Below are positions 21,977 to 37,464 of a stretch of DNA of 64,000 nt, piece by piece. The stretch is from a virus. Every line of letters begins with the position of its first letter. Position 1 is the first letter of the stretch. The stretch lies in the IMG/VR virus record IMGVR_UViG_3300009499_000053. One strand, 5' to 3'. The notes under the pieces are model-generated. The model worked only from the letters and a program-made list of their open reading frames with translations. It did not search any database and had not been told where the DNA came from. A program made the position numbers and the translations under genes.

Positions 21977-23230
21977 CTAAAAGTGTTCCGCCTTCATCCA
22001 ATCTTTGGGTAACTTTATCTCAAGGGTCTTGGCGTCCTCTCCACCCTCTCCAAGTTCCCTCTCCTTTTCCTTTAGGAAGGGTTCCCACAGGTTAGTAATA
22101 AGTCTGTCCCACTCATACTTCTTAGCAAAGTTTCTACTAAGTTTCCCGTATTGTAGTCTCTTCTTTGAATTAAAGTATGCCTCTTCCAGTTTCTTTGCTA
22201 TATCATCCTGATCGGGAACAGCACACTTACCATTTAGGGGGGTGTACATCCAATCCCTAGATTTAACTAACCAACCATGACCCTTAATTAGTTCAGGCAT
22301 TGAGGAGAATTTCGTACCTATGACAGGTACACCACAAGCCATTGCTTCTAGCATACATAGGCCAAATCCCTCTCTTCTGGCGCAGTTCATAAGTAAGTCA
22401 AATGAAGAGTAGAGCATAGCCATCTCACTCTCAGGTAGACCTACAAGCTCAGTCATTCTATCTGGGAAGAAGACGTTCTTATCAACCCCAATACTCTGAG
22501 CAAGACCAGGAAGATCAAATCCACGAAGATGTTGGGACTTAGTGTAGGCGAATACAAACACTTCTTTCTCTAGTTTAGGGTGTTCCTCAAAGAAGATCTT
22601 AAGACCCATGAACATCTTATCCCAACCTTTCCTAGGTTCTGGATCATTATTGGCAGCTACCATTCCTATTATGAACTTATCATTTCTGAATCCGAAGTGT
22701 TCTCTACAGGTACTTCTGTTGAGGGGTTTGAAGACCTGAGTATCAACTCCATGGGGAATCATTCGTGTCATTCTACCATACTTCTGGGCTTCTCTTCTAC
22801 CAAACTTAGAGATTGTGATAAACTCATTATACCTCTTCAAGGTCTTCTGGTGTTGTAGACCATACTCACTGTGATCTATTGGACCATAGAATGTAGAGTT
22901 CCTTAGCTTTGGGAACCAGGAAAATCTCCAGAAGTCTGAGAAGAGAATAGGAAGATCAATGTTGAAGGCCTTTACATAGTATGGAACTGCCTTCCTACCA
23001 TACTCCTTCTCTCCGTTATAGATTGGAAAGATAGGTACTCCACCTAGTTTTAACATTCCACCCTCAGAAATACCATAGTAGGCTGCTATGATTATAGGCC
23101 AACCCCTCTGGTGTAACCTAAAGACTATATTCTTAGTAACATTCCCATAGCCAGAACGACAGTGAGGACTAACACTAAGCCATAGAATATTTAGTTTATG
23201 CTTTTTTGTCCTCTTCTTCTTTTCCATCAC
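21977..23230 (-). CDS. Glycosyltransferase family 4 (GT-B)
   Basis: SGYG, IPHGVD, RKG and EGFGLCMLEAMACGVPVI motifs. Confidence 0.9.
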   Translation of the reverse strand: MMEKKKRTKKHKLNILWLSVSPHCRSGYGNVTKNIVFRLHQRGWPIIIAAYYGISEGGMLKLGGVPIFPIYNGEKEYGRKAVPYYVKAFNIDLPILFSDFWRFSWFPKLRNSTFYGPIDHSEYGLQHQKTLKRYNEFITISKFGRREAQKYGRMTRMIPHGVDTQVFKPLNRSTCREHFGFRNDKFIIGMVAANNDPEPRKGWDKMFMGLKIFFEEHPKLEKEVFVFAYTKSQHLRGFDLPGLAQSIGVDKNVFFPDRMTELVGLPESEMAMLYSSFDLLMNCARREGFGLCMLEAMACGVPVIGTKFSSMPELIKGHGWLVKSRDWMYTPLNGKCAVPDQDDIAKKLEEAYFNSKKRLQYGKLSRNFAKKYEWDRLITNLWEPFLKEKERELGEGGEDAKTLEIKLPKDWMKAEHF

Positions 23231-25445
23231 TTACCAAGATCTCCTTCAAATAATCATCCAATCTCTTTCCAGAAATGACCTTTATCTTGTAGTCTCTCTC
23301 ATCTATGGAGTGAACAAAGTTCTTGTGTGGAATTATTACCTTATTGAAGCCCCAGCGTTCAGCAGCCTTGATCTTCTCATAAAGTCCACCTACAGCAGTA
23401 ACCTCTATTTTATCTGTTGCTGAGATGTTTATCTCTCCGGTAACTGCTATATCCTGTCTTATAGCCTTCTTCTCTAGTAGGGAACAAAGTAATATGGCCA
23501 TTGTGACACCAGCACTGGGTCCATCTACTCCATAGGCTTGTGAGAAGTCTACATGGGTACAGTAGTCCTGTGCAATATCAACCTTGTACTTCTTAAGGAT
23601 AACTGTTCTTACCTTGTCAACTGAGTCCTGTATGAATTTACCCTTCTTATTTATTCCAGAAACTTTAAGGTAACCACGCTTTCTCTTTCCCCTTGGTAAC
23701 ATAGTAGCCTTTACCCTAAGGACATTGCCAGTCATCTCCTGTGAGAAGGGATCCGTCACAACTGCTAGTCCATAATTAACTCCTGTCTTTTTTCCAACTG
23801 GTTCTATCTCCAAGAGTTTACCTCTCTCCTGGATTAGATGTTCTAGGATCTGTTTCTGTATAGTCTTGCAGTGTACTTCAATTGCTTCTATTACATGCCT
23901 TTTTTCAACAAAAAGAGTATCTTTCCCTTCTAGGATAATTGATACATTTGCATTTTCTACTGGTATTCTTTCGTCTTTTTTTCTGCTCTCATTCTCTGCA
24001 AGGATAGCAGCAGTCCTTATGATAGAGATAAGTGGTCTAAACTTTGTGGATAGACAATCAGTTTTATTAGACTTTCTTCTTCCTTCGTGACAGATCTCTA
24101 TACAGGCTTCTCTAGTAAAGGGTTTAAGGTGGAATCTCTTTGATTCCTGAGCTATAAATTGTACATACTTTCTTCTATTTGCAACTGTGTTAGGCATGTC
24201 ATTACTCATTCTAACTACTCTACCATAACCATAAATTCTGTCCATTAATGCTGGGTGTATCATAGTGATACTGTCAAAGTTTCCAGCTCCTACTAGGAAT
24301 GTTAGACATGGTACAGGTTCAGTTGCTACAGCCATAGCTGAGGTTCCACTAGCAGACCACTTAGATCTTAGGGTAATTGGAAGTTGTCCTTCCTCAAGGA
24401 CTGTAAGTAAAGTAACAGCCTCATCTGGATGAAGGTTCTTAATCTCATCGATATAGAGAATGCCTAAGTTTGCCTTGTGAACATCTCCTGCAGTAGTTCT
24501 CTGGTGTTCAGGTGTTCCTAGACCTCCAGTTTGTAGAGGATCCCAAGCAATAGAACCAAAGAGTTGTGCACTCTTGTGACCTGTAGCATCAATAAAGGGA
24601 GCTACTTTCCCAGTGTTGTCTACTAGAAGCTTTGGGGCATCTGTTTGTTCAGATCCTGAGATTCCCTTAGAACCACCCATCATACCTGATCGTCCCATGA
24701 ATATAATTAGTATCAGGAAGATCATCATCATTCCAGCAGGTAGGAATGTTATAGAACCTACCTCTATGAAGCTAGAGAGCATATAGTTAAAAAGATTACC
24801 TTCCCAGACAGTTTGTAATGGACCATACATAGTCATTGCATTAGCAAACCATACCATAAGTTTATCCCATAGCAGATATATTCCTGCAGAAATAAAGGCC
24901 ATTCCCACTGTAGCCATAAAATAGGTCATACCCTTGATGAAAAGTTTCTTAAGTCTTGACTTCTTTTCATGTTTACGTTTCTCTCTCAGGACTTGTTTTC
25001 TACCTTCTCCAGCCCTTCTACATGAAATCTTAGGTTCACTTGGGACTATTGCGTTCATCCAACAGATGACATCTTGAAGTTTAATCTGATGTTTCAGGTA
25101 TAGCTGAGTAAGATGTGAAGCAAGGGCTCTACCAATAAGAGATTTACCAGTACCAGGATCTCCCATTAACATTAAGTATGGACCTGGTGGAATCAACTTC
25201 TTCATAGTAGGCTTTTCAGAGTTAGGATCTGTCCAGATATCAAACCACTTCTCTCTCTCCATCCAGTTTAATTTATGGACCCATTCATCCAAACACAAGT
25301 AACATTCAGCAAGGGCTTGCTTCTGACCTATTACCCAGTCAAGCAATTCCTCAGAGACTGGAAAGTCTTTTATGTTCTGAAAGTTCTTCCAATCCCAGAT
25401 CTTCTCTCCAATTTTCTCTTTTCCTTTACCAAAATAAGATGTCAT
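23196..25445 (-). CDS. lonB: Archaeal-type membrane-anchored Lon protease
   Basis: Walker A GDPGTGKS, two TM segments inserted in the AAA+ domain, Walker B LYIDEI, catalytic VDGPSAG and KIKAA Ser-Lys dyad. Confidence 0.92.
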   Translation of the reverse strand: MTSYFGKGKEKIGEKIWDWKNFQNIKDFPVSEELLDWVIGQKQALAECYLCLDEWVHKLNWMEREKWFDIWTDPNSEKPTMKKLIPPGPYLMLMGDPGTGKSLIGRALASHLTQLYLKHQIKLQDVICWMNAIVPSEPKISCRRAGEGRKQVLREKRKHEKKSRLKKLFIKGMTYFMATVGMAFISAGIYLLWDKLMVWFANAMTMYGPLQTVWEGNLFNYMLSSFIEVGSITFLPAGMMMIFLILIIFMGRSGMMGGSKGISGSEQTDAPKLLVDNTGKVAPFIDATGHKSAQLFGSIAWDPLQTGGLGTPEHQRTTAGDVHKANLGILYIDEIKNLHPDEAVTLLTVLEEGQLPITLRSKWSASGTSAMAVATEPVPCLTFLVGAGNFDSITMIHPALMDRIYGYGRVVRMSNDMPNTVANRRKYVQFIAQESKRFHLKPFTREACIEICHEGRRKSNKTDCLSTKFRPLISIIRTAAILAENESRKKDERIPVENANVSIILEGKDTLFVEKRHVIEAIEVHCKTIQKQILEHLIQERGKLLEIEPVGKKTGVNYGLAVVTDPFSQEMTGNVLRVKATMLPRGKRKRGYLKVSGINKKGKFIQDSVDKVRTVILKKYKVDIAQDYCTHVDFSQAYGVDGPSAGVTMAILLCSLLEKKAIRQDIAVTGEINISATDKIEVTAVGGLYEKIKAAERWGFNKVIIPHKNFVHSIDERDYKIKVISGKRLDDYLKEILVSDGKEEEDKKA

Positions 25446-29790: not shown

Positions 29791-29812
29791 GAAGCACAGG
29801 TTTATATATACA
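29791..29812 (+). promoter_or_regulatory. TATA promoter for the right arm
   Basis: GAAGCACAGG-TTTATATATA about 35 nt upstream of the first plus-strand ORF. Confidence 0.55.
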
Positions 29813-29842
29813 TTTAACCTTATATAAATTGAGGTTAAAAAA

Positions 29843-29995
29843 GTGACAACCCAAACCCAAGAGCTAAGGGCAAGACGGCTAAAGTGGACTTTTGAAGCCT
29901 TCAAAGCAAGTGTAGCGGAAACTAAAGCCAAAATTCAAGACTTCAAACTGTTCATGCGAACAACAGATAAACACAAAACGGGGTATATAGTATAA
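29843..29995 (+). CDS. Hypothetical 50 aa protein (not in track)
   Basis: GAGGT RBS, GTG start, TAATG coupling to the next ORF. Confidence 0.5.
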   Translation: MTTQTQELRARRLKWTFEAFKASVAETKAKIQDFKLFMRTTDKHKTGYIV

Positions 29996-30375
29996 TGAAA
30001 GGGAAAATAGACACACGAAATAGATGGCAAAGAATGAATGACGCTAGATATGAGAAAACAGCATACACACAGGGAGAGTTAATGACGCTAAAGAACAGAG
30101 CTAAAGAGAATAACATTCAGCACTTCAATAGATTAAGTGATGAACATGGTCACACTTTAAAACACCCAAGAACTTCAGAGTTAATACGAATGAAAACAAG
30201 TGATGTAGTCAGTCCTAAACTAATACCTAGAGTTTACAGAAAGGTAGCCCAACCGATACAATTCATAAAGGTAACTAGAAATAAGGACGGTATTACAGGG
30301 ATAATTCACACAGGGAAGAACAGGAAAAAGTCATGGAGAAGCATCTGGTATAGCTCACAGAGTCGGAGGAAATAG
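29995..30375 (+). CDS. Basic hypothetical protein
   Basis: 126 aa ORF coupled to the upstream ORF. Confidence 0.55.
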   Translation: MKGKIDTRNRWQRMNDARYEKTAYTQGELMTLKNRAKENNIQHFNRLSDEHGHTLKHPRTSELIRMKTSDVVSPKLIPRVYRKVAQPIQFIKVTRNKDGITGIIHTGKNRKKSWRSIWYSSQSRRK

Positions 30376-30410
30376 TCCTAGAAGTCATGACACTACCCAA
30401 AAGTGGGTAG

Positions 30411-30423
30411 GAAGTCTTAAATA
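30411..30423 (+). promoter_or_regulatory. TATA promoter (GAAGT-CTTAAATA) upstream of the structured region
   Basis: Same CTTAAATA box as the structural-gene promoters at 7974 and 11862. Confidence 0.5.
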
Positions 30424-31224
30424 CCCTAAGGGGTATAGGTAGTTAAAACCTAAACCCAACCTTTAGGAGTTGGGCAGTAGGAGAATAAAGCTCTCAATGG
30501 AGAGTAGCCATAGAGTAAGCTACGCACTAGCTAGTCTTACCGATGGCTACCCCATCACGGGGTATAGAAACCCCTTCACGATAGGAGTATAACATCGTAG
30601 GCGAGAGGCTTAACTGCACCCGCAAGGGAAGCAAGAGATTAAGCCTTCCTACTCTCCTAGTAATAGGAGTGCATAAGTGTGTAGATGAACGTAGCACACA
30701 TATCAATGGGTGGAAGCTTAGGCTTGACCTAACACGCCCTTTCATGGTTACACCTTTAGGAGTGTAAAAGCCAACCTGTCAGAGGGATGTCCCAAACGTC
30801 CCGATGAGGGAACGGTTGCAGTAGACCGAGCAGGGACTTGCCTCCCCTGTGTCGCAGAAGAACATACAACGTTCTCTGCTAGAACTCCCACCGCAAGGTG
30901 AGAAGCATTATTCGCTAGCGTTATTGAGCTAGAGATTTGTATGAAGCCAAGTGCCTAGTGGGAATCCGTGCTAGTGGACTATAGCGTATGTCATGACTCG
31001 TACTCGGTCATCTCTTTTGGTTGGCTTGTGGGGCGTAGGGCGGTAAGCTACTATCGCACGAGGCAAAGGACACTTGTGTCACTGAGGTCATTCTGTTTGG
31101 GCAGAAGGCGTAGGAGCATGAGTTAGGCAAATTAGCGAACTATGCAACAAAAACCTTCCCGAGTGAACTAAATCAGAAGCTCGGGAAACACTAAGCGAAC
31201 ATGGTTCGAAAGGACATTAACCCC

Positions 31225-31328
31225 GAAAGAGAGCTTGAGCGAGCCTAAAACTTCAACTGAAGTATTTGAGAGATGTAGCTATCTTGAAGTATGGATAGAA
31301 GTCATGGTTTCAAATCCGTTCTCTTTCA
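31225..31328 (+). ncRNA. tRNA-like element 1 (non-canonical)
   Basis: GAAAGAGA/TCTCTTTC acceptor-like stem, ATGG-TTTCAAAT-CCGT T-arm, discriminator A, then a T-run; no encoded CCA. Confidence 0.45.
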
Positions 31329-31340
31329 CTTTTTTCTACT
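31329..31340 (+). terminator. Possible oligo-T archaeal terminator or processing site
   Basis: CTTTTTCTACTT immediately after tRNA-like element 1. Confidence 0.3.
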
Positions 31341-31546
31341 TATCAGTTCACATATCATGGTCACACTAGTGACTGCAAACCTCGGTAGGATTAGTTACAC
31401 ATCGAGTATGCCACCGAGCAATATACGGGGTACCAAAGAACGCCCTGTAGTGTCAGGAGATTGGAGGATAACATCCCACCCAAGCCTGCAACACTCAGAG
31501 AGGGTTAGCCCTATACTTGGGCATATACAGGTCATTCATTAAAGTA

Positions 31547-31625
31547 CCCCTTATGGTGATTGGACACACAAGGTATGAGTGCACCTTTAAAGCACGAATC
31601 GTAGGTGAAAGACCTACTGGGGGGA
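31547..31625 (+). ncRNA. tRNA-like element 2 (non-canonical)
   Basis: CCCCTTA/TGGGGGG 7-bp stem, GTG-ATTGGACA-CAC D-arm, GTAGG-TGAAAGA-CCTAC T-arm, discriminator A; no CCA. Confidence 0.5.
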
Positions 31626-31647
31626 CTTCCTCCCTAGAGGGATTAGA

Positions 31648-31875
31648 ATGAAGGGTTCATACTACAACTGTATAGCTCTTATAAGCATAAGGAATGAGAA
31701 TGACTTTAGAACTGAACTGCTCTTCTATGTGGAATGTCCAGATGAATGGAAGAGTAAGAAGCTAATGACATACACTCAGATGAGTCACTGGGTTCAAACA
31801 GGTGAGGTAGAGGAATTCGTGCCTCTAGGTCTTAAGTATGTAGTGCCTGTAAGAAAACGAGCAAGCCTATACTGA
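31648..31875 (+). CDS. Hypothetical protein
   Basis: 75 aa, GAGGG RBS. Confidence 0.55.
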   Translation: MKGSYYNCIALISIRNENDFRTELLFYVECPDEWKSKKLMTYTQMSHWVQTGEVEEFVPLGLKYVVPVRKRASLY

Positions 31876-31975
31876 AAATAGAGCAAAGTCCTGTCTATGC
31901 CGGAAGGAGTTAACTGTATTGGCACTCCTAGTGAATGGTGTATAGGAGGCATAAAACTAATGGAGGTGGTTTGTT

Positions 31976-32224
31976 ATGGGTAAAATAATCTACCCGATAG
32001 ATGAATGGGAAGAAGATGAACGAGATAATGAACGCGGTCACCCAAGGAGATTGAAGAAACCAAGCCACATAGTAGACAGAGACTACATAGGCTTCGGACA
32101 TTGGTTACTAAACTATTCTGACGGAACTAGTGAACTAATACGTGAACCAAACAACACGTTTACTGACCTCTTCTATAAAGTTGGGAATTATGATGACAAA
32201 GGACACCCAGTATATCCCAAGTAA
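31976..32224 (+). CDS. Hypothetical protein
   Basis: 82 aa, GGAGGTGG RBS. Confidence 0.6.
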   Translation: MGKIIYPIDEWEEDERDNERGHPRRLKKPSHIVDRDYIGFGHWLLNYSDGTSELIREPNNTFTDLFYKVGNYDDKGHPVYPK

Positions 32225-33251
32225 AGCAGAAGAACTGCATCTAACTGAGGTACTAAGGAAACTTGGAGAAAACCTCAGTGGACTGGAACTTAAGGACGTA
32301 GGTAGCACTGCTAAAGGAACATGGTTAGCTGGTGCAAGTGACATAGACATCTATGTAGTCTGTGACAACATCCAAGAAACACATAAACGTATCAAGGGAC
32401 TATTCCCTAACGGACACGACAAGAAAGGACAATTAACCATCTGGAACTTCCTATTAGACGGATATGATGTTGACCTAGTTATAGTCACCAAGAACTTCCA
32501 TAAGAGGGAAGATACTTTGTTACATGCAAGTTACTTTAATCGAATTCTAACTCAAGACATGAAGAATGAGGTCCGAAAGGCTAAGGCTTTCTTCAAAACG
32601 CATGGAGTCTACGGAGCAGAGAACGGAGGCATAGTAGGAGTGGCACTTGAAGCCCTCATGATTCAAGCACATAACCTAGAAACCCTATGTGGTTATCTTA
32701 AATGGGGAAAACAACTCTTCGTGCAAGACCCAACAATGACAGAGAAAAGGAATCTCCTAGCAAGTGTCAATGATAAGAGGTGGAAACAGATTCAAAGAGT
32801 ATGCAAGGACTACCTAAATGATAAACCCTTTAGTTTTAAACCTATGTCAACAAATGAATTCCATGACCAGTATAAGTGGACTCACTGCACAATGATGTTC
32901 TATAGGAAGTATGACAAGGGACTAGACTATCAGACAATAACAAGCACAGCTAACAAAATAAGTAGAATGCTAAGGAACCAAGATAGGGACATCACAATCG
33001 ACATAGATGCATTCGTAGACAATGAACACATAATACTTTGCTACAGAGTTAGACCACTACAACTAAGCTCTCTTAAGGAAGTCTGCGTAGGACTTCAGTA
33101 TGCTAAGGCATTCAAAGATGCACACCCAAATGCAATCGTCAGAGATGACAAGGTATGTGCAGATGTAAGACGTCCAGTAGTCTTTCCAGATACAGCTTTC
33201 ATAACAATGGTAGTAGAGGCAATGGAACTAAAAGGATACACGAGATTCTAA
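32190..33251 (+). CDS. cca: Class I (archaeal) CCA-adding tRNA nucleotidyltransferase
   Basis: VGSTAKGTWL..SDIDIYV, DVDLV, EDTLLH, EVRKAKAFFK..GVYGAE; start probably ATG about 32190. Confidence 0.85.
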   Translation: MMTKDTQYIPSKAEELHLTEVLRKLGENLSGLELKDVGSTAKGTWLAGASDIDIYVVCDNIQETHKRIKGLFPNGHDKKGQLTIWNFLLDGYDVDLVIVTKNFHKREDTLLHASYFNRILTQDMKNEVRKAKAFFKTHGVYGAENGGIVGVALEALMIQAHNLETLCGYLKWGKQLFVQDPTMTEKRNLLASVNDKRWKQIQRVCKDYLNDKPFSFKPMSTNEFHDQYKWTHCTMMFYRKYDKGLDYQTITSTANKISRMLRNQDRDITIDIDAFVDNEHIILCYRVRPLQLSSLKEVCVGLQYAKAFKDAHPNAIVRDDKVCADVRRPVVFPDTAFITMVVEAMELKGYTRF

Positions 33252-36699: not shown

Positions 36700-37032
36700 G
36701 GTGATAACATGCAAGTATTTGAAGAACCACTTATAAGAATGGAAATAAAAATCAGACAATTACGATGGAAGAAAAGACATTGGATATACCTAATCCAAAC
36801 ACAGGCAATGTGAGGTGAATTACACTGAATATATTTAAGAGGTTCCGTTATAACCATCCAACTATTTCTTGGGCTCTATTGATGTTAGGAAACTTTGTCT
36901 ATACAACAAGCTTTGCTCGTTTGATTATAGGAGATACTTTTAGTATAACCTGGATTGCTACCATTGCTCTTGGACTTCCTCTCTACTTAATGGTAAGTGA
37001 GAAAATAGATAAGATGTTTGGAAGGTAATAGA

Positions 37033-37464
37033 ATGTCAGAAATAGTATTACATGCATTAGTCTTTGCAAAGAAGAAACATGGTTCTCAGAAGGATGACTG
37101 TGGTAAGGACTACTTTACAGCCCACATTCATCAAGTGGTAAGAATACTAACGAAAGTCACATCAGACTATGAAGTCATTGCAACGGCATTTCTCCATGAT
37201 ACATTGGAGGATACCAATACTACTGAGGCAGAACTTCGAAAGGAGTTTGGTGATACAATAACAGACCTTGTACTAGAGGTTACACATGAGGGTTCTAAGG
37301 AGAAGGGTTACTACTTCCCAAGACTACACAGTGAGAAGGCAATCCTAGTCAAGTTTGCTGATAGACTCTCTAACCTATCTCGTATGAATGCATGGAACAA
37401 GAAACGTAGGGACCATTACCTACTCAAGTCTCAGTTCTGGAGGATAGCGGAGGTGAAAGGATGA
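37033..37464 (+). CDS. HD-domain hydrolase, RelA/SpoT (Mesh1/SAH)-like
   Basis: FAKKKHGSQ..G.DY..H, AFLHDTLEDT and VKFADRLSNL. Confidence 0.85.
   Translation: MSEIVLHALVFAKKKHGSQKDDCGKDYFTAHIHQVVRILTKVTSDYEVIATAFLHDTLEDTNTTEAELRKEFGDTITDLVLEVTHEGSKEKGYYFPRLHSEKAILVKFADRLSNLSRMNAWNKKRRDHYLLKSQFWRIAEVKG

What the first reader, a model, noticed from the sequence alone, without database searches (positions are those of the whole stretch)
30445..31630. About 1.2 kb highly structured RNA region at the start of the right arm
Seen: the only long stretch without a convincing ORF. Nested and long-range helices include GTAGCCAT 30504-11/ATGGCTAC 30543-50; AGGCTTAA 30606-13/TTAAGCCT 30639-46; ACGCCC 30734-39/GGGCGT 31031-36 enclosing AAGCCAACC 30768-76/GGTTGGCTT 31019-27 (a ~250-nt multibranch domain); TTCCCGAG 31156-63/CTCGGGAA 31180-87; GGGGTAC 31427-33/GTACCCC 31544-50; and CACC-GCAA-GGTG 30889-900. 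It is preceded by the same CTTAAATA box as the capsid and tail operons. Known: large phage ncRNAs (GOLLD, ROOL) are often tRNA-associated, but I cannot match this to any of them, or to group I/II introns. Inference: a new large viral RNA, possibly late-expressed (structural, packaging, decoy or catalytic).
Basis: partly seen in the sequence, partly recalled or inferred. Interest (0 to 1): 0.82.

Follow-up and report, generated by a model that had tools for sequence, protein, structure and literature searches.

The report
New large structured RNA in virus
An uncultivated, probably archaeal, tailed virus and at least eight relatives carry a conserved gene for a roughly 950-base folded RNA that matches no described RNA family; its function is unknown.

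Summary
The finding is real, and its core reading holds. Window 30384-31335 (+) encodes a large non-coding RNA.

- **Not coding:** all six frames are full of all three stop codons.
- **Composition and folding:** GC is 0.47-0.51 against 0.40 nearby. The fold is far more stable than shuffles (z = -5.7; coding controls 0 to +1.5).
- **Not a known family:** Rfam 15 gives nothing, even at E <= 10.
- **Conservation:** homologous ORF-free stretches lie at the same place in at least 8 other distinct metagenomic viral contigs. They are as conserved as the flanking genes.
- **Covariation:** it is strong in both modelled parts. The 3' domain has 93% of cells paired and 29 of 40 pairs changed on both sides. 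The core has 91% and 16 of 21. Slid controls give 35-50%. G-U outnumbers A-C 53 to 6, which fixes the strand as +.

- The RNA ends at a conserved helix, then A, then oligo-T at 31335.
- 31340-31560 is an unconserved spacer.
- 31572-31647 is a separate conserved leader of the next gene.
- The CTTAAATA box sits in a window-specific insertion.
- Perfect stems alone are no commoner than chance.

Function is inferred only. The RNA follows a conserved basic-protein gene and lies upstream of a viral class I CCA-adding enzyme, in a genome with no tRNA genes. The scan had also flagged the 3' part as tRNA-like (note e1-5724780).

The parts
29801..29829 (+). Two TATA-like boxes (TTTATATATA, TTATATAAAT) ahead of the first right-arm operon. 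This is the likely promoter of the transcript that carries the RNA.
   Evidence: Read from the sequence. Window 29801-29828 is 89% identical to L003:95-122. The promoter function is inferred.
29843..29995 (+). ORF50, whose stop overlaps the start of ORF126 (TAATG).
29995..30375 (+). ORF126, a small and very basic protein of no known family. It is the conserved neighbour immediately upstream of the RNA.
   Evidence: Homologs end just before the RNA in L005, L003 and L071/L072, and about 370 nt before it in L009. It has no Pfam, PHROG or NCBIfam hit. The AlphaFold model is poor (pLDDT 60).
30384..31335 (+). The large structured non-coding RNA gene. The 5' end is approximate.
   Evidence: It has no ORF and folds at z = -5.7. 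nhmmer and covariance-model homologs were found. Covariation is strong and G-U outnumbers A-C 53 to 6.
30384..30391 (+). The 5' copy of the palindrome GUCAUGAC. RNAalifold pairs it with the second copy at 30990-30997.
   Evidence: It is conserved right after the ORF126 stop in win, L071, L003 and L005. These are the only two copies in the 133-kb genome. Because it is a palindrome, the pairing cannot be tested by covariation.
30394..30450 (+). A window-specific insertion of two small hairpins. It contains the CTTAAATA box (30416-30423).
   Evidence: It is absent from L071, L003 and L005 in the alignments. The box is not enriched in the window.
30455..30474 (+). Hairpin hp1, with the conserved loop CCUU(U/C)AGGAG and a covarying stem.
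   Evidence: The exact motif occurs only twice in the window and in the whole genome, both times in this RNA.
30504..30646 (+).
   Evidence: The same positions form helices of different sequence in L071, L003 and L005.
30747..30768 (+). Hairpin hp2, the second copy of the CCUUUAGGAG loop.
   Evidence: The stem covaries: ACAC/GUGU, ACGU/ACGU and UCAU/AUGA.
30768..31027 (+). The central multibranch domain. It is closed by long-range helix L1 (30768-30776 with 31019-31027) and contains L2 (30824-30830 with 31003-31009).
   Evidence: L1 is kept in five sequences, with a C>U / G>A compensation in L009. The pair flanking L2 is G:C, A:U, C:G or U:A in four of five sequences and a U-U mismatch in L071. 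The local hairpins covary.
31156..31187 (+). Connector hairpin (UUCCCGAG/CUCGGGAA).
   Evidence: It shows compensatory changes in L005 and L009.
31195..31335 (+). The 3' rod domain. It starts with a GAAA-tetraloop hairpin. A 10-bp closing helix P1 (31225-31234 with 31318-31327) then leads into P2 to P6, followed by A31328, C31329 and the T-run 31330-31335.
   Evidence: Model R1 hits 11 loci, 9 of them distinct besides the window, all on the + strand. 93.4% of cells are paired and 29 of 40 pairs changed on both sides. Every member ends in the helix, then (C)A, then oligo-T.
31340..31560 (.). Unconserved spacer. It is absent from L003 and unrelated in L005.
   Evidence: Local folding z-scores here are only -1 to -2 on both strands.
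31572..31647 (+). A separate conserved leader of three hairpins, ending in a Shine-Dalgarno-like GAGG just before the ATG of ORF75.
   Evidence: 17 pairs, 8 with compensatory change, across win, L005, L003 and L021. A similar layout is seen in L004.
31648..31875 (+). ORF75, a small protein of unknown function.
   Evidence: L005 encodes a 61%-identical homolog.
32142..33251 (+). A compact archaeal-type (class I) CCA-adding-enzyme-like nucleotidyltransferase.
   Evidence: It hits PF01909 and PF09249 and TIGR03671 at 83.9 bits, below the 281-bit cut-off. The AlphaFold model (pLDDT 93) matches A. fulgidus CCA-adding enzyme at TM 0.77.

Best explanation
**What is shown.** Window 30384-31335 (+) is the gene of a previously undescribed family of large structured non-coding RNAs. 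Family members run from about 0.65 to 1.1 kb. They are carried by a clade of uncultivated tailed viruses that look archaeal. The RNA has four parts:
- a variable 5' domain;
- a central multibranch domain closed by two long-range helices;
- a connector;
- a highly conserved 3' rod. Its 10-bp closing helix is followed in every member by an unpaired A and an oligo-U tract, which marks the 3' end.

**What is inferred.**
- The RNA is made as the tail of the first right-arm transcript (ORF50-ORF126-RNA).
- It accumulates as a stable RNA, or as an RNA-protein particle with the basic protein ORF126 encoded immediately upstream.
- In the closer relatives, the twin hairpins with the loop CCUU(U/C)AGGAG are the likeliest protein-binding sites.
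- Its helix-plus-A 3' end would be handled by tRNA 3'-end enzymes, including the virus's own CCA-adding enzyme encoded 0.8 kb downstream.
- It would then act in trans on host tRNA or translation metabolism, as a decoy or scaffold. This resembles what is suspected for the phage RNAs GOLLD and ROOL.
For: **Not coding, and not a known family**
- stops in every frame; no Rfam or tRNA hit.

**Folding and composition**
- z = -5.7 against about 0 to +1.5 for coding controls. GC is raised.

**Homologs**
- Full-length homologs by nhmmer: L005, L009, L002, L003 and L071.
- Both covariance models hit L021 and L037 in the same order and strand, about 500-600 nt apart.
- Partial copies occur in L013 and L038.
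- A reduced version with a different but still complementary P1 occurs in L004 and L011.
- Nucleotide identity of the RNA is 68-74%, equal to that of the flanking genes at 66-72%.

**Covariation**
- 3' domain: 93.4% paired, 29 of 40 pairs changed on both sides, 0 of 500 shuffles as high, slid controls 35-48%.
- Core: 91.0% paired, 16 of 21 pairs, slid controls 36-50%.
- The long-range helices L1 and L2 show compensation.

**Strand and 3' end**
- G-U outnumbers A-C 53 to 6.
- The end is a helix, then A, then T5-T7, in all aligned members.

**Context**
- An ORF126 homolog lies directly upstream in 5 of 6 full-length members.
- The CCA-adding enzyme downstream has a confident class I fold.
- The 133-kb genome has no tRNA genes.
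- The last 26 nt fit a pattern that, in prokaryotic genomes, falls on the 3' ends of tRNA genes in 39 of 126 matches.
Against: - Neither end of the transcript is mapped.
- Most homologs were found by looking next to the CCA-enzyme gene, so that linkage is partly an ascertainment effect. L071 has the RNA but no CCA gene within 1.6 kb downstream. Several CCA-gene relatives show no detectable RNA.
- The tRNA-like reading is weak:
  - ARAGORN and the Rfam tRNA models find nothing.
  - A T-arm pairing is broken in L002, whereas P1 and P3 covary.
  - The UUCAAAU motif is missing in L021, L034/L037, L038 and L004.
- The CCUUUAGGAG loops are also missing in L021 and L037.
- ORF126 gave no confident fold, and L073 has an ORF126 homolog with no RNA after it.
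- The covariation counts were made on alignments fitted to the models, which favours the models.
Confidence: 0.6

Rival explanations
1. It is a cis-acting element rather than a trans-acting RNA: a long structured 3' UTR and terminator of the ORF50-ORF126 operon. On this reading it stabilises that mRNA and gates read-through into the next unit (leader, ORF75 and onward to the CCA enzyme).
For: - The RNA begins within about 15 nt of the ORF126 stop, with no room for a promoter of its own.
- The one feature shared by every member is a closing helix followed by oligo-T.
- The motif TTTTTTCTACTTAT is conserved beyond the T-run, and in L003 it lies about 30 nt before the leader. It could therefore double as a TATA-like element.
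- In 4 of 5 sequences CCAACC has two possible partners, a local GUUGGU and a distal GGUUGG, as in a switch.
Against: - About 950 nt of multi-domain structure is far more than a terminator or mRNA stabiliser needs. It has conserved internal loops, a GAAA tetraloop and long-range helices.
- If the host is archaeal, termination at oligo-T needs no hairpin (established knowledge).
- The window itself lacks the local GUUGGU partner.
Confidence: 0.2
2. It is an RNA-only machine: either a self-assembling multimer (a cage or ring, as ROOL and GOLLD form) or a new ribozyme. It would need no dedicated protein partner.
For: - Its size, viral origin, tRNA-related neighbourhood and pattern of a conserved 3' region with a variable 5' region parallel GOLLD (PMC12286853).
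- The two conserved copies of the palindrome GUCAUGAC could pair between molecules.
- The GNRA-type GAAA tetraloop is nearly invariant.
Against: - No homology to GOLLD, ROOL or any ribozyme model was found.
- No cleavage-site or exon context is present.
- Multimerisation cannot be judged from sequence.
- L009 lacks the 5' palindrome.
Confidence: 0.12
3. It is not an RNA gene. It could instead be a DNA-level element next to the terminase genes (a packaging site or origin), or decayed remains of tRNA or protein genes.
For: - It lies 0.9 kb from the small and large terminase genes, at the strand-switch region.
- Its last 26 nt resemble the 3' end of a tRNA gene.
Against: - Compensatory changes that keep pairing, together with a 53 to 6 excess of G-U over A-C, point to a single-stranded + strand RNA.
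- Conservation equals that of coding genes.
- Stops fill every frame, and peptide-level matches occur in all frames alike.
Confidence: 0.03

Closest known systems
GOLLD RNA (Rfam RF01998) and ROOL RNA (RF03087), the large ornate RNAs of phages
   Same: - They are large (over 500-800 nt), ORF-free, multi-domain RNAs whose structure is supported by covariation.
- They are encoded by viruses of prokaryotes, in a tRNA-related neighbourhood, and their function is unknown.
- Like GOLLD, this RNA has a strongly conserved 3' region and a variable 5' region (PMC12286853).
   Different: - There is no detectable sequence or structure homology: no Rfam hit even at E <= 10.
- The host virus looks archaeal, not bacterial.
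- The neighbour is a CCA-adding enzyme, in a genome with no tRNA genes, rather than a tRNA array.
- A conserved small basic-protein gene abuts its 5' end.
tRNA-like 3' modules of long RNAs: mascRNA of MALAT1 and MEN-beta, and t-elements
   Same: - A helix followed by an unpaired A lies at the 3' end.
- In the closer clade a UUCAAAU motif sits exactly 12 nt before that A, followed by oligo-T, as at the end of an archaeal tRNA gene. 39 of 126 genome matches to this pattern are tRNA 3' ends.
- Class I CCA-adding enzyme has been crystallised with a MEN-beta minihelix (PDB 4x4u, listed).
   Different: - There is no cloverleaf.
- A T-arm is contradicted by covariation, which supports a continuous 10+2 bp helix capped by a long rod.
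- The T-loop-like motif is absent from distant members.
- Processing and CCA addition are untested.
RNA-protein gene pairs in which the RNA starts at the end of the protein gene (for example TnpB with its reRNA, IscB with its omega RNA)
   Same: The RNA begins within about 15 nt of the stop codon of a conserved small protein gene and is probably co-transcribed with it.
   Different: - ORF126 is a 126-aa basic protein with no nuclease or other known domain.
- No transposon ends are present.
- The RNA is several times larger than those guide RNAs.
- The association rests on synteny alone.

Membership tests
GOLLD (RF01998) / ROOL (RF03087) | A match to the family covariance model. | tested here: not met
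   cmscan against all 4227 Rfam 15 families gave no hit at gathering score. It gave none at E <= 10 on window 29900-32200, window 30376-31345 or homolog L005:1700-2820.
Large ornate viral ncRNA (a kind of RNA, not a homology family) | More than 500 nt, no ORF, a multi-domain secondary structure supported by covariation, and virus-encoded. | tested here: met
   The viral context includes terminase, portal and major capsid genes.
tRNA / tRNA-like structure | A cloverleaf recognised by tRNA detectors. | tested here: not met
   ARAGORN finds no tRNA or tmRNA in the window or in the 133-kb genome. No Rfam tRNA hit appears at E <= 10.
tRNA / tRNA-like structure | A T-arm: a 5-bp stem closing a 7-nt T-loop, kept by covariation. 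| tested here: not met
   The candidate AUGG/CCGU pairing fails in L002. The alternative helices P1 (10 bp) and P3 carry the compensatory changes.
tRNA / tRNA-like structure | The 3'-terminal signature: T-loop sequence, then 5+7 nt, then a discriminator, with no encoded CCA, then oligo-T. | tested here: inconclusive
   It is met in win, L071, L003, L005, L009, L002 and L013, and the pattern finds real tRNA 3' ends in 39 of 126 genome matches. The UUCAAAU motif is missing in L021, L034/L037, L038 and L004.
Group I / group II introns, RNase P RNA, SRP RNA, tmRNA, small ribozymes | A match to the family model. For introns, also flanking exons of an interrupted gene. | tested here: not met
   No Rfam hit. 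ORF126 ends at a conserved natural C-terminus (...NR(R/K)K), and the next ORF has its own Shine-Dalgarno sequence and ATG.
Class I (archaeal) CCA-adding enzyme (the neighbouring gene 32142-33251) | The NTase motif GS...SD.D, and a head-neck-body-tail fold like the A. fulgidus enzyme. | tested here: met
   G37, S38, D50 and D52 are invariant in 26 homologs. The model (pLDDT 93) matches 3ova, 1r89 and 4x4u at TM 0.73-0.77. The TIGR03671 score is below the family cut-off, 83.9 against 281 bits. Activity is untested.

The most novel reading that the evidence does not exclude
This is the first class of giant ornate RNA from archaeal viruses. The RNA, about 0.9 kb long, would be released from the end of an early mRNA and assembled into a particle, either with the basic protein ORF126 or as an RNA-only multimer through its two GUCAUGAC palindromes. 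Its acceptor-stem-like 3' end would be trimmed and CCA-tagged by the virus's own CCA-adding enzyme. The tRNA-processing machinery would thus be used to build or mark a viral RNA device that acts on host translation or tRNA-targeting defence.
Probability: 0.2. Interest if true: 0.9.

Novelty: new variant of a known kind. Interest (0 to 1): 0.78.

Why it matters
- **Rarity.** Very few RNA classes are this large and structured without being ribosomal RNA, introns or RNase P RNA. Examples are GOLLD, ROOL, OLE, HEARO and raiA. Each has opened new biology, and GOLLD and ROOL were recently shown to form RNA cages (PMC12286853).
- **New territory.** None of those I know of comes from an archaeal virus. 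This family shows that such RNAs also exist in a deeply divergent viral lineage, one that looks archaeal. Its terminase is only 23-26% identical to that of any cultured phage.
- **A testable context.** The RNA sits between a conserved basic-protein gene and a viral CCA-adding enzyme, in a genome that has no tRNA genes. That gives concrete hypotheses about what these RNAs do.
- **Ready for experiment.** The covariation-supported helices and exact domain borders make the RNA suitable for in vitro transcription, SHAPE, cryo-EM and enzyme assays.

Tried and rejected
**Known RNA families and tRNAs**
- Rfam at gathering score and at E <= 10 gave only chance hits below threshold.
- ARAGORN found no tRNA or tmRNA.

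**Coding explanations**
- Alternative genetic codes are rejected, since every stop codon is frequent in every frame.
- A hidden small peptide is rejected. tblastn matches of stop-to-stop pieces occur in all frames and on both strands over the same conserved bases.

**Searches that found nothing**
- blastn of the region against 50,697 phage records: no match.
- The CCA enzyme against phage records: no match.
- Single-protein and profile scans of IMG/VR: no relative.
- A strict pattern for the 3' domain in viral and genome collections: no match.
- A looser 3'-end pattern found mostly the 3' ends of tRNA genes and chance sites. None matched the 3'-domain model R1 or the full-length nhmmer profile.
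- Two 2026 preprints on mining non-coding elements do not mention the search terms CCA-adding, archaeal virus, nucleotidyltransferase or tRNA-like.

**Tests that could not be done or gave nothing usable**
- The ORF126 structure model was too poor to search with.
- The Atlas gave no usable look-alike.

- Counting perfect stems is at chance level.
- CTTAAATA as a shared promoter is not enriched and not conserved.
Full report
**Setting**

The window is the right 64 kb of a 133-kb IMG/VR virus record.
- The left arm (- strand) holds the major capsid, portal and large terminase genes.
- Transcription switches to the + strand near 29.5-29.8 kb.
- The virus is far from any cultured phage. Its terminase is 23-26% identical to that of Thermus phages at best.
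- Several features look archaeal:
  - a class I CCA-adding-enzyme homolog;
  - a LonB of the archaeal type, TIGR00764 at 385 bits;
  - TATA-box-like promoters;
  - oligo-T after the RNA, as at archaeal terminators.
- The host is not established.

**Checking the observation**

The stretch is truly ORF-free: each of the three stop codons is frequent in all six frames. GC rises to 0.47-0.51 against about 0.40 nearby.

A list of perfect 6-9 bp complements is, however, not evidence by itself. The region holds 34, 8 and 2 such stems of at least 7, 8 and 9 bp. Shuffles give 33.8, 8.6 and 2.0, and coding controls give as many.

What does exceed chance is the thermodynamic stability of the whole fold. 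The + strand gives z = -5.7, against -0.1 to +1.5 for coding controls. Above all, the comparison with relatives exceeds chance.

**Relatives**

The gene downstream (32142-33251) has 48 homologs in metagenomes. I fetched their contigs and searched them.

| Search | Result |
|---|---|
| nhmmer with the window region | Full-length homology in L005, L009, L002 and L003 |
| Homologs of the upstream ORF126 | A sixth full-length copy, L071 (= L072) |
| Model R1 (3' domain) | Also L034 (= L037), L013, L021 and L038 |
| Model R2 (5' half of the core) | L003, L021 and L037, about 500-600 nt upstream of their R1 hits |
| Closer look at L004 and L011 | A reduced 3' domain whose P1 differs in sequence but stays complementary |

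All hits lie on the + strand. The two-domain architecture is therefore shared by distant members. L004 also has a noncoding stretch of about 650 nt and the same downstream leader.

The RNA is 68-74% identical between contigs. The neighbouring protein genes are 66-72% identical.

**Structure**

- **3' domain.** 93.4% of cells form standard pairs, and 29 of 40 pairs show changes on both sides. No shuffle reached these values, and partners slid by 1-3 columns give 35-48%.
- **Core.** The figures are 91.0% and 16 of 21 pairs, with slid controls at 36-50%.
- **Caveat.** Both alignments were fitted to the models, which favours them. The first RNAalifold runs on plain MAFFT alignments already showed the same compensations.
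- **Long-range helices.** These were checked by anchoring on conserved words.
  - L1 (30768-30776 with 31019-31027) is kept in five sequences, with a C>U / G>A double change in L009.
  - The pair flanking L2 (30824-30830 with 31003-31009) is G:C, A:U, C:G or U:A in four of the five sequences and a U-U mismatch in L071.
- **Strand.** G-U pairs outnumber A-C 53 to 6, so the folded strand is +.
Four of seven are supported in this way, one is inconclusive and two are not.

**Borders**

Every member ends with the 10-bp helix P1, then (C)A and a run of 5-7 T. In the window these are P1 31225-31234/31318-31327, A31328 and T 31330-31335.

Downstream, 31340-31560 has no counterpart in L003 and none recognisable in L005.

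A separate element occupies 31572-31647. It is three covarying hairpins that end at a GAGG and the ATG of ORF75.

At the 5' side, a conserved GUCAUGAC follows the ORF126 stop within about 15 nt in win, L071, L003 and L005. Its second copy lies in the core, and RNAalifold pairs the two.

The CTTAAATA box lies in a 57-nt insertion peculiar to this genome and is not enriched in the window. The likelier promoter is the TATA pair at 29801-29829, ahead of ORF50-ORF126. That pair is conserved in L003.

**What it is not**

- It matches no Rfam family, on the window or on a homolog.
- It contains no tRNA or tmRNA.
- It is not a recoded or hidden peptide gene.
- It has no intron context.

**The tRNA-like lead**

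Another first-stage note (e1-5724780) called 31225-31625 two tRNA-like folds.

- **For.** In the closer clade the last 26 nt read UUCAAAU, then 5+7 nt, then A, then oligo-T. The same pattern in prokaryotic genomes falls on the 3' ends of ARAGORN tRNAs in 39 of 126 matches. P1 plus P2 make 12 bp, the length of an acceptor/T-arm stack.
- **Against.** There is no cloverleaf. The T-arm pairing fails in L002, while P1 and P3 covary. The motif is also absent from distant members.

I keep it as a lead for how the 3' end is processed, not as a classification.

**Context and likely working**

- ORF126 is a small basic protein with invariant Arg, His and Trp motifs and no known family. It precedes the RNA in 5 of 6 full-length members.
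- The enzyme downstream has a confident class I CCA-adding fold: pLDDT 93, and TM 0.77 to the A. fulgidus enzyme. The matched entries include complexes with tRNA minihelices and a MEN-beta minihelix.
- The 133-kb genome has no tRNA genes.
- In the closer clade two hairpins carry the loop CCUU(U/C)AGGAG on covarying stems. In the window's genome that motif occurs nowhere else.

My best reading has these steps:
1. The RNA is co-transcribed with ORF126.
2. It ends at P1 and the oligo-U tract.
3. It accumulates as a stable RNA or RNA-protein particle.
4. It acts in trans on host tRNA or translation metabolism.

Only the existence, strand, structure and borders of the RNA are shown. The rest is inferred from synteny.

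**Rivals**

- A cis-acting 3' UTR and terminator switch. CCAACC has an alternative local partner in 4 of 5 sequences.
- An RNA-only assembly or ribozyme.
- A DNA-level element, which I consider unlikely.

**Comparison and novelty**

The closest known things are GOLLD and ROOL. They too are large, viral, tRNA-associated RNAs of unknown function, and GOLLD also has a conserved 3' region and a variable 5' region (PMC12286853). No homology to either was detected, and the likely host domain differs.

An archaeal virus with a CCA-adding enzyme is known (HGTV-1, PMC8651126). That virus has 36 tRNA genes, whereas this one has none.

I found no description of this RNA in the papers searched.

Noticed in passing
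window 31572-31647: A conserved three-hairpin leader lies directly before the Shine-Dalgarno sequence and ATG of ORF75. The third hairpin's CCUCCC could pair either with the upstream GGGGGG or, as UCCCU, with the downstream AGGGA of the Shine-Dalgarno region, which would give a translational switch. In L021 the middle hairpin is a canonical T-arm (GAAGG-UUCAAGU-CCUUC).
   Followed up: partly
window 37018-37464: A 148-aa protein matches the N-terminal HD hydrolase region of RelA/SpoT (TIGR00691, 72 bits). This looks like a virus-encoded small (p)ppGpp hydrolase.
   Followed up: no
whole 133-kb genome (G000): ARAGORN finds no tRNA gene, although the virus encodes a CCA-adding-enzyme homolog. A relative, L004, also encodes an RNA ligase (PF09414).
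   Followed up: partly
window 30771-30776; L071, L005, L009 and L002 equivalents: CCAACC can pair with a distal GGUUGG in all five sequences, with compensation in L009. In four of five it can also pair with a local GUUGGU about 45 nt downstream. The window has lost the local partner. This could be a conformational switch.
   Followed up: partly
window 30659-30664 against the loops at 30758-30762 and 30465-30469: A conserved CUCCU(A) in the 5' domain is complementary to the AGGAG of the twin hairpin loops. L005 has UUCCU together with AGGAA in its second hairpin (alignment). In L003 and L071 the strand reads CACCUCCUA, like the 3' end of 16S rRNA. This could be a pseudoknot or an anti-Shine-Dalgarno mimic.
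   Followed up: no
L002:400-600: In this relative a small zinc-ribbon-like ORF (CxxC...CxxC) sits between the first hairpin and the rest of the RNA. The 5' hairpin module can therefore be separated from the core.
   Followed up: no
window 23196-25445: An archaeal-type LonB protease (TIGR00764, 385 bits; Lon_C domain) lies among the head and packaging genes. This agrees with the scan's note e1-5724784.
   Followed up: partly
window 30677-30715: A second window-specific insertion lies inside the 5' domain. It is a hairpin, GUGUGUAG...GCACACAU, absent from the relatives. The variable 5' domain evidently tolerates insertions.
   Followed up: no
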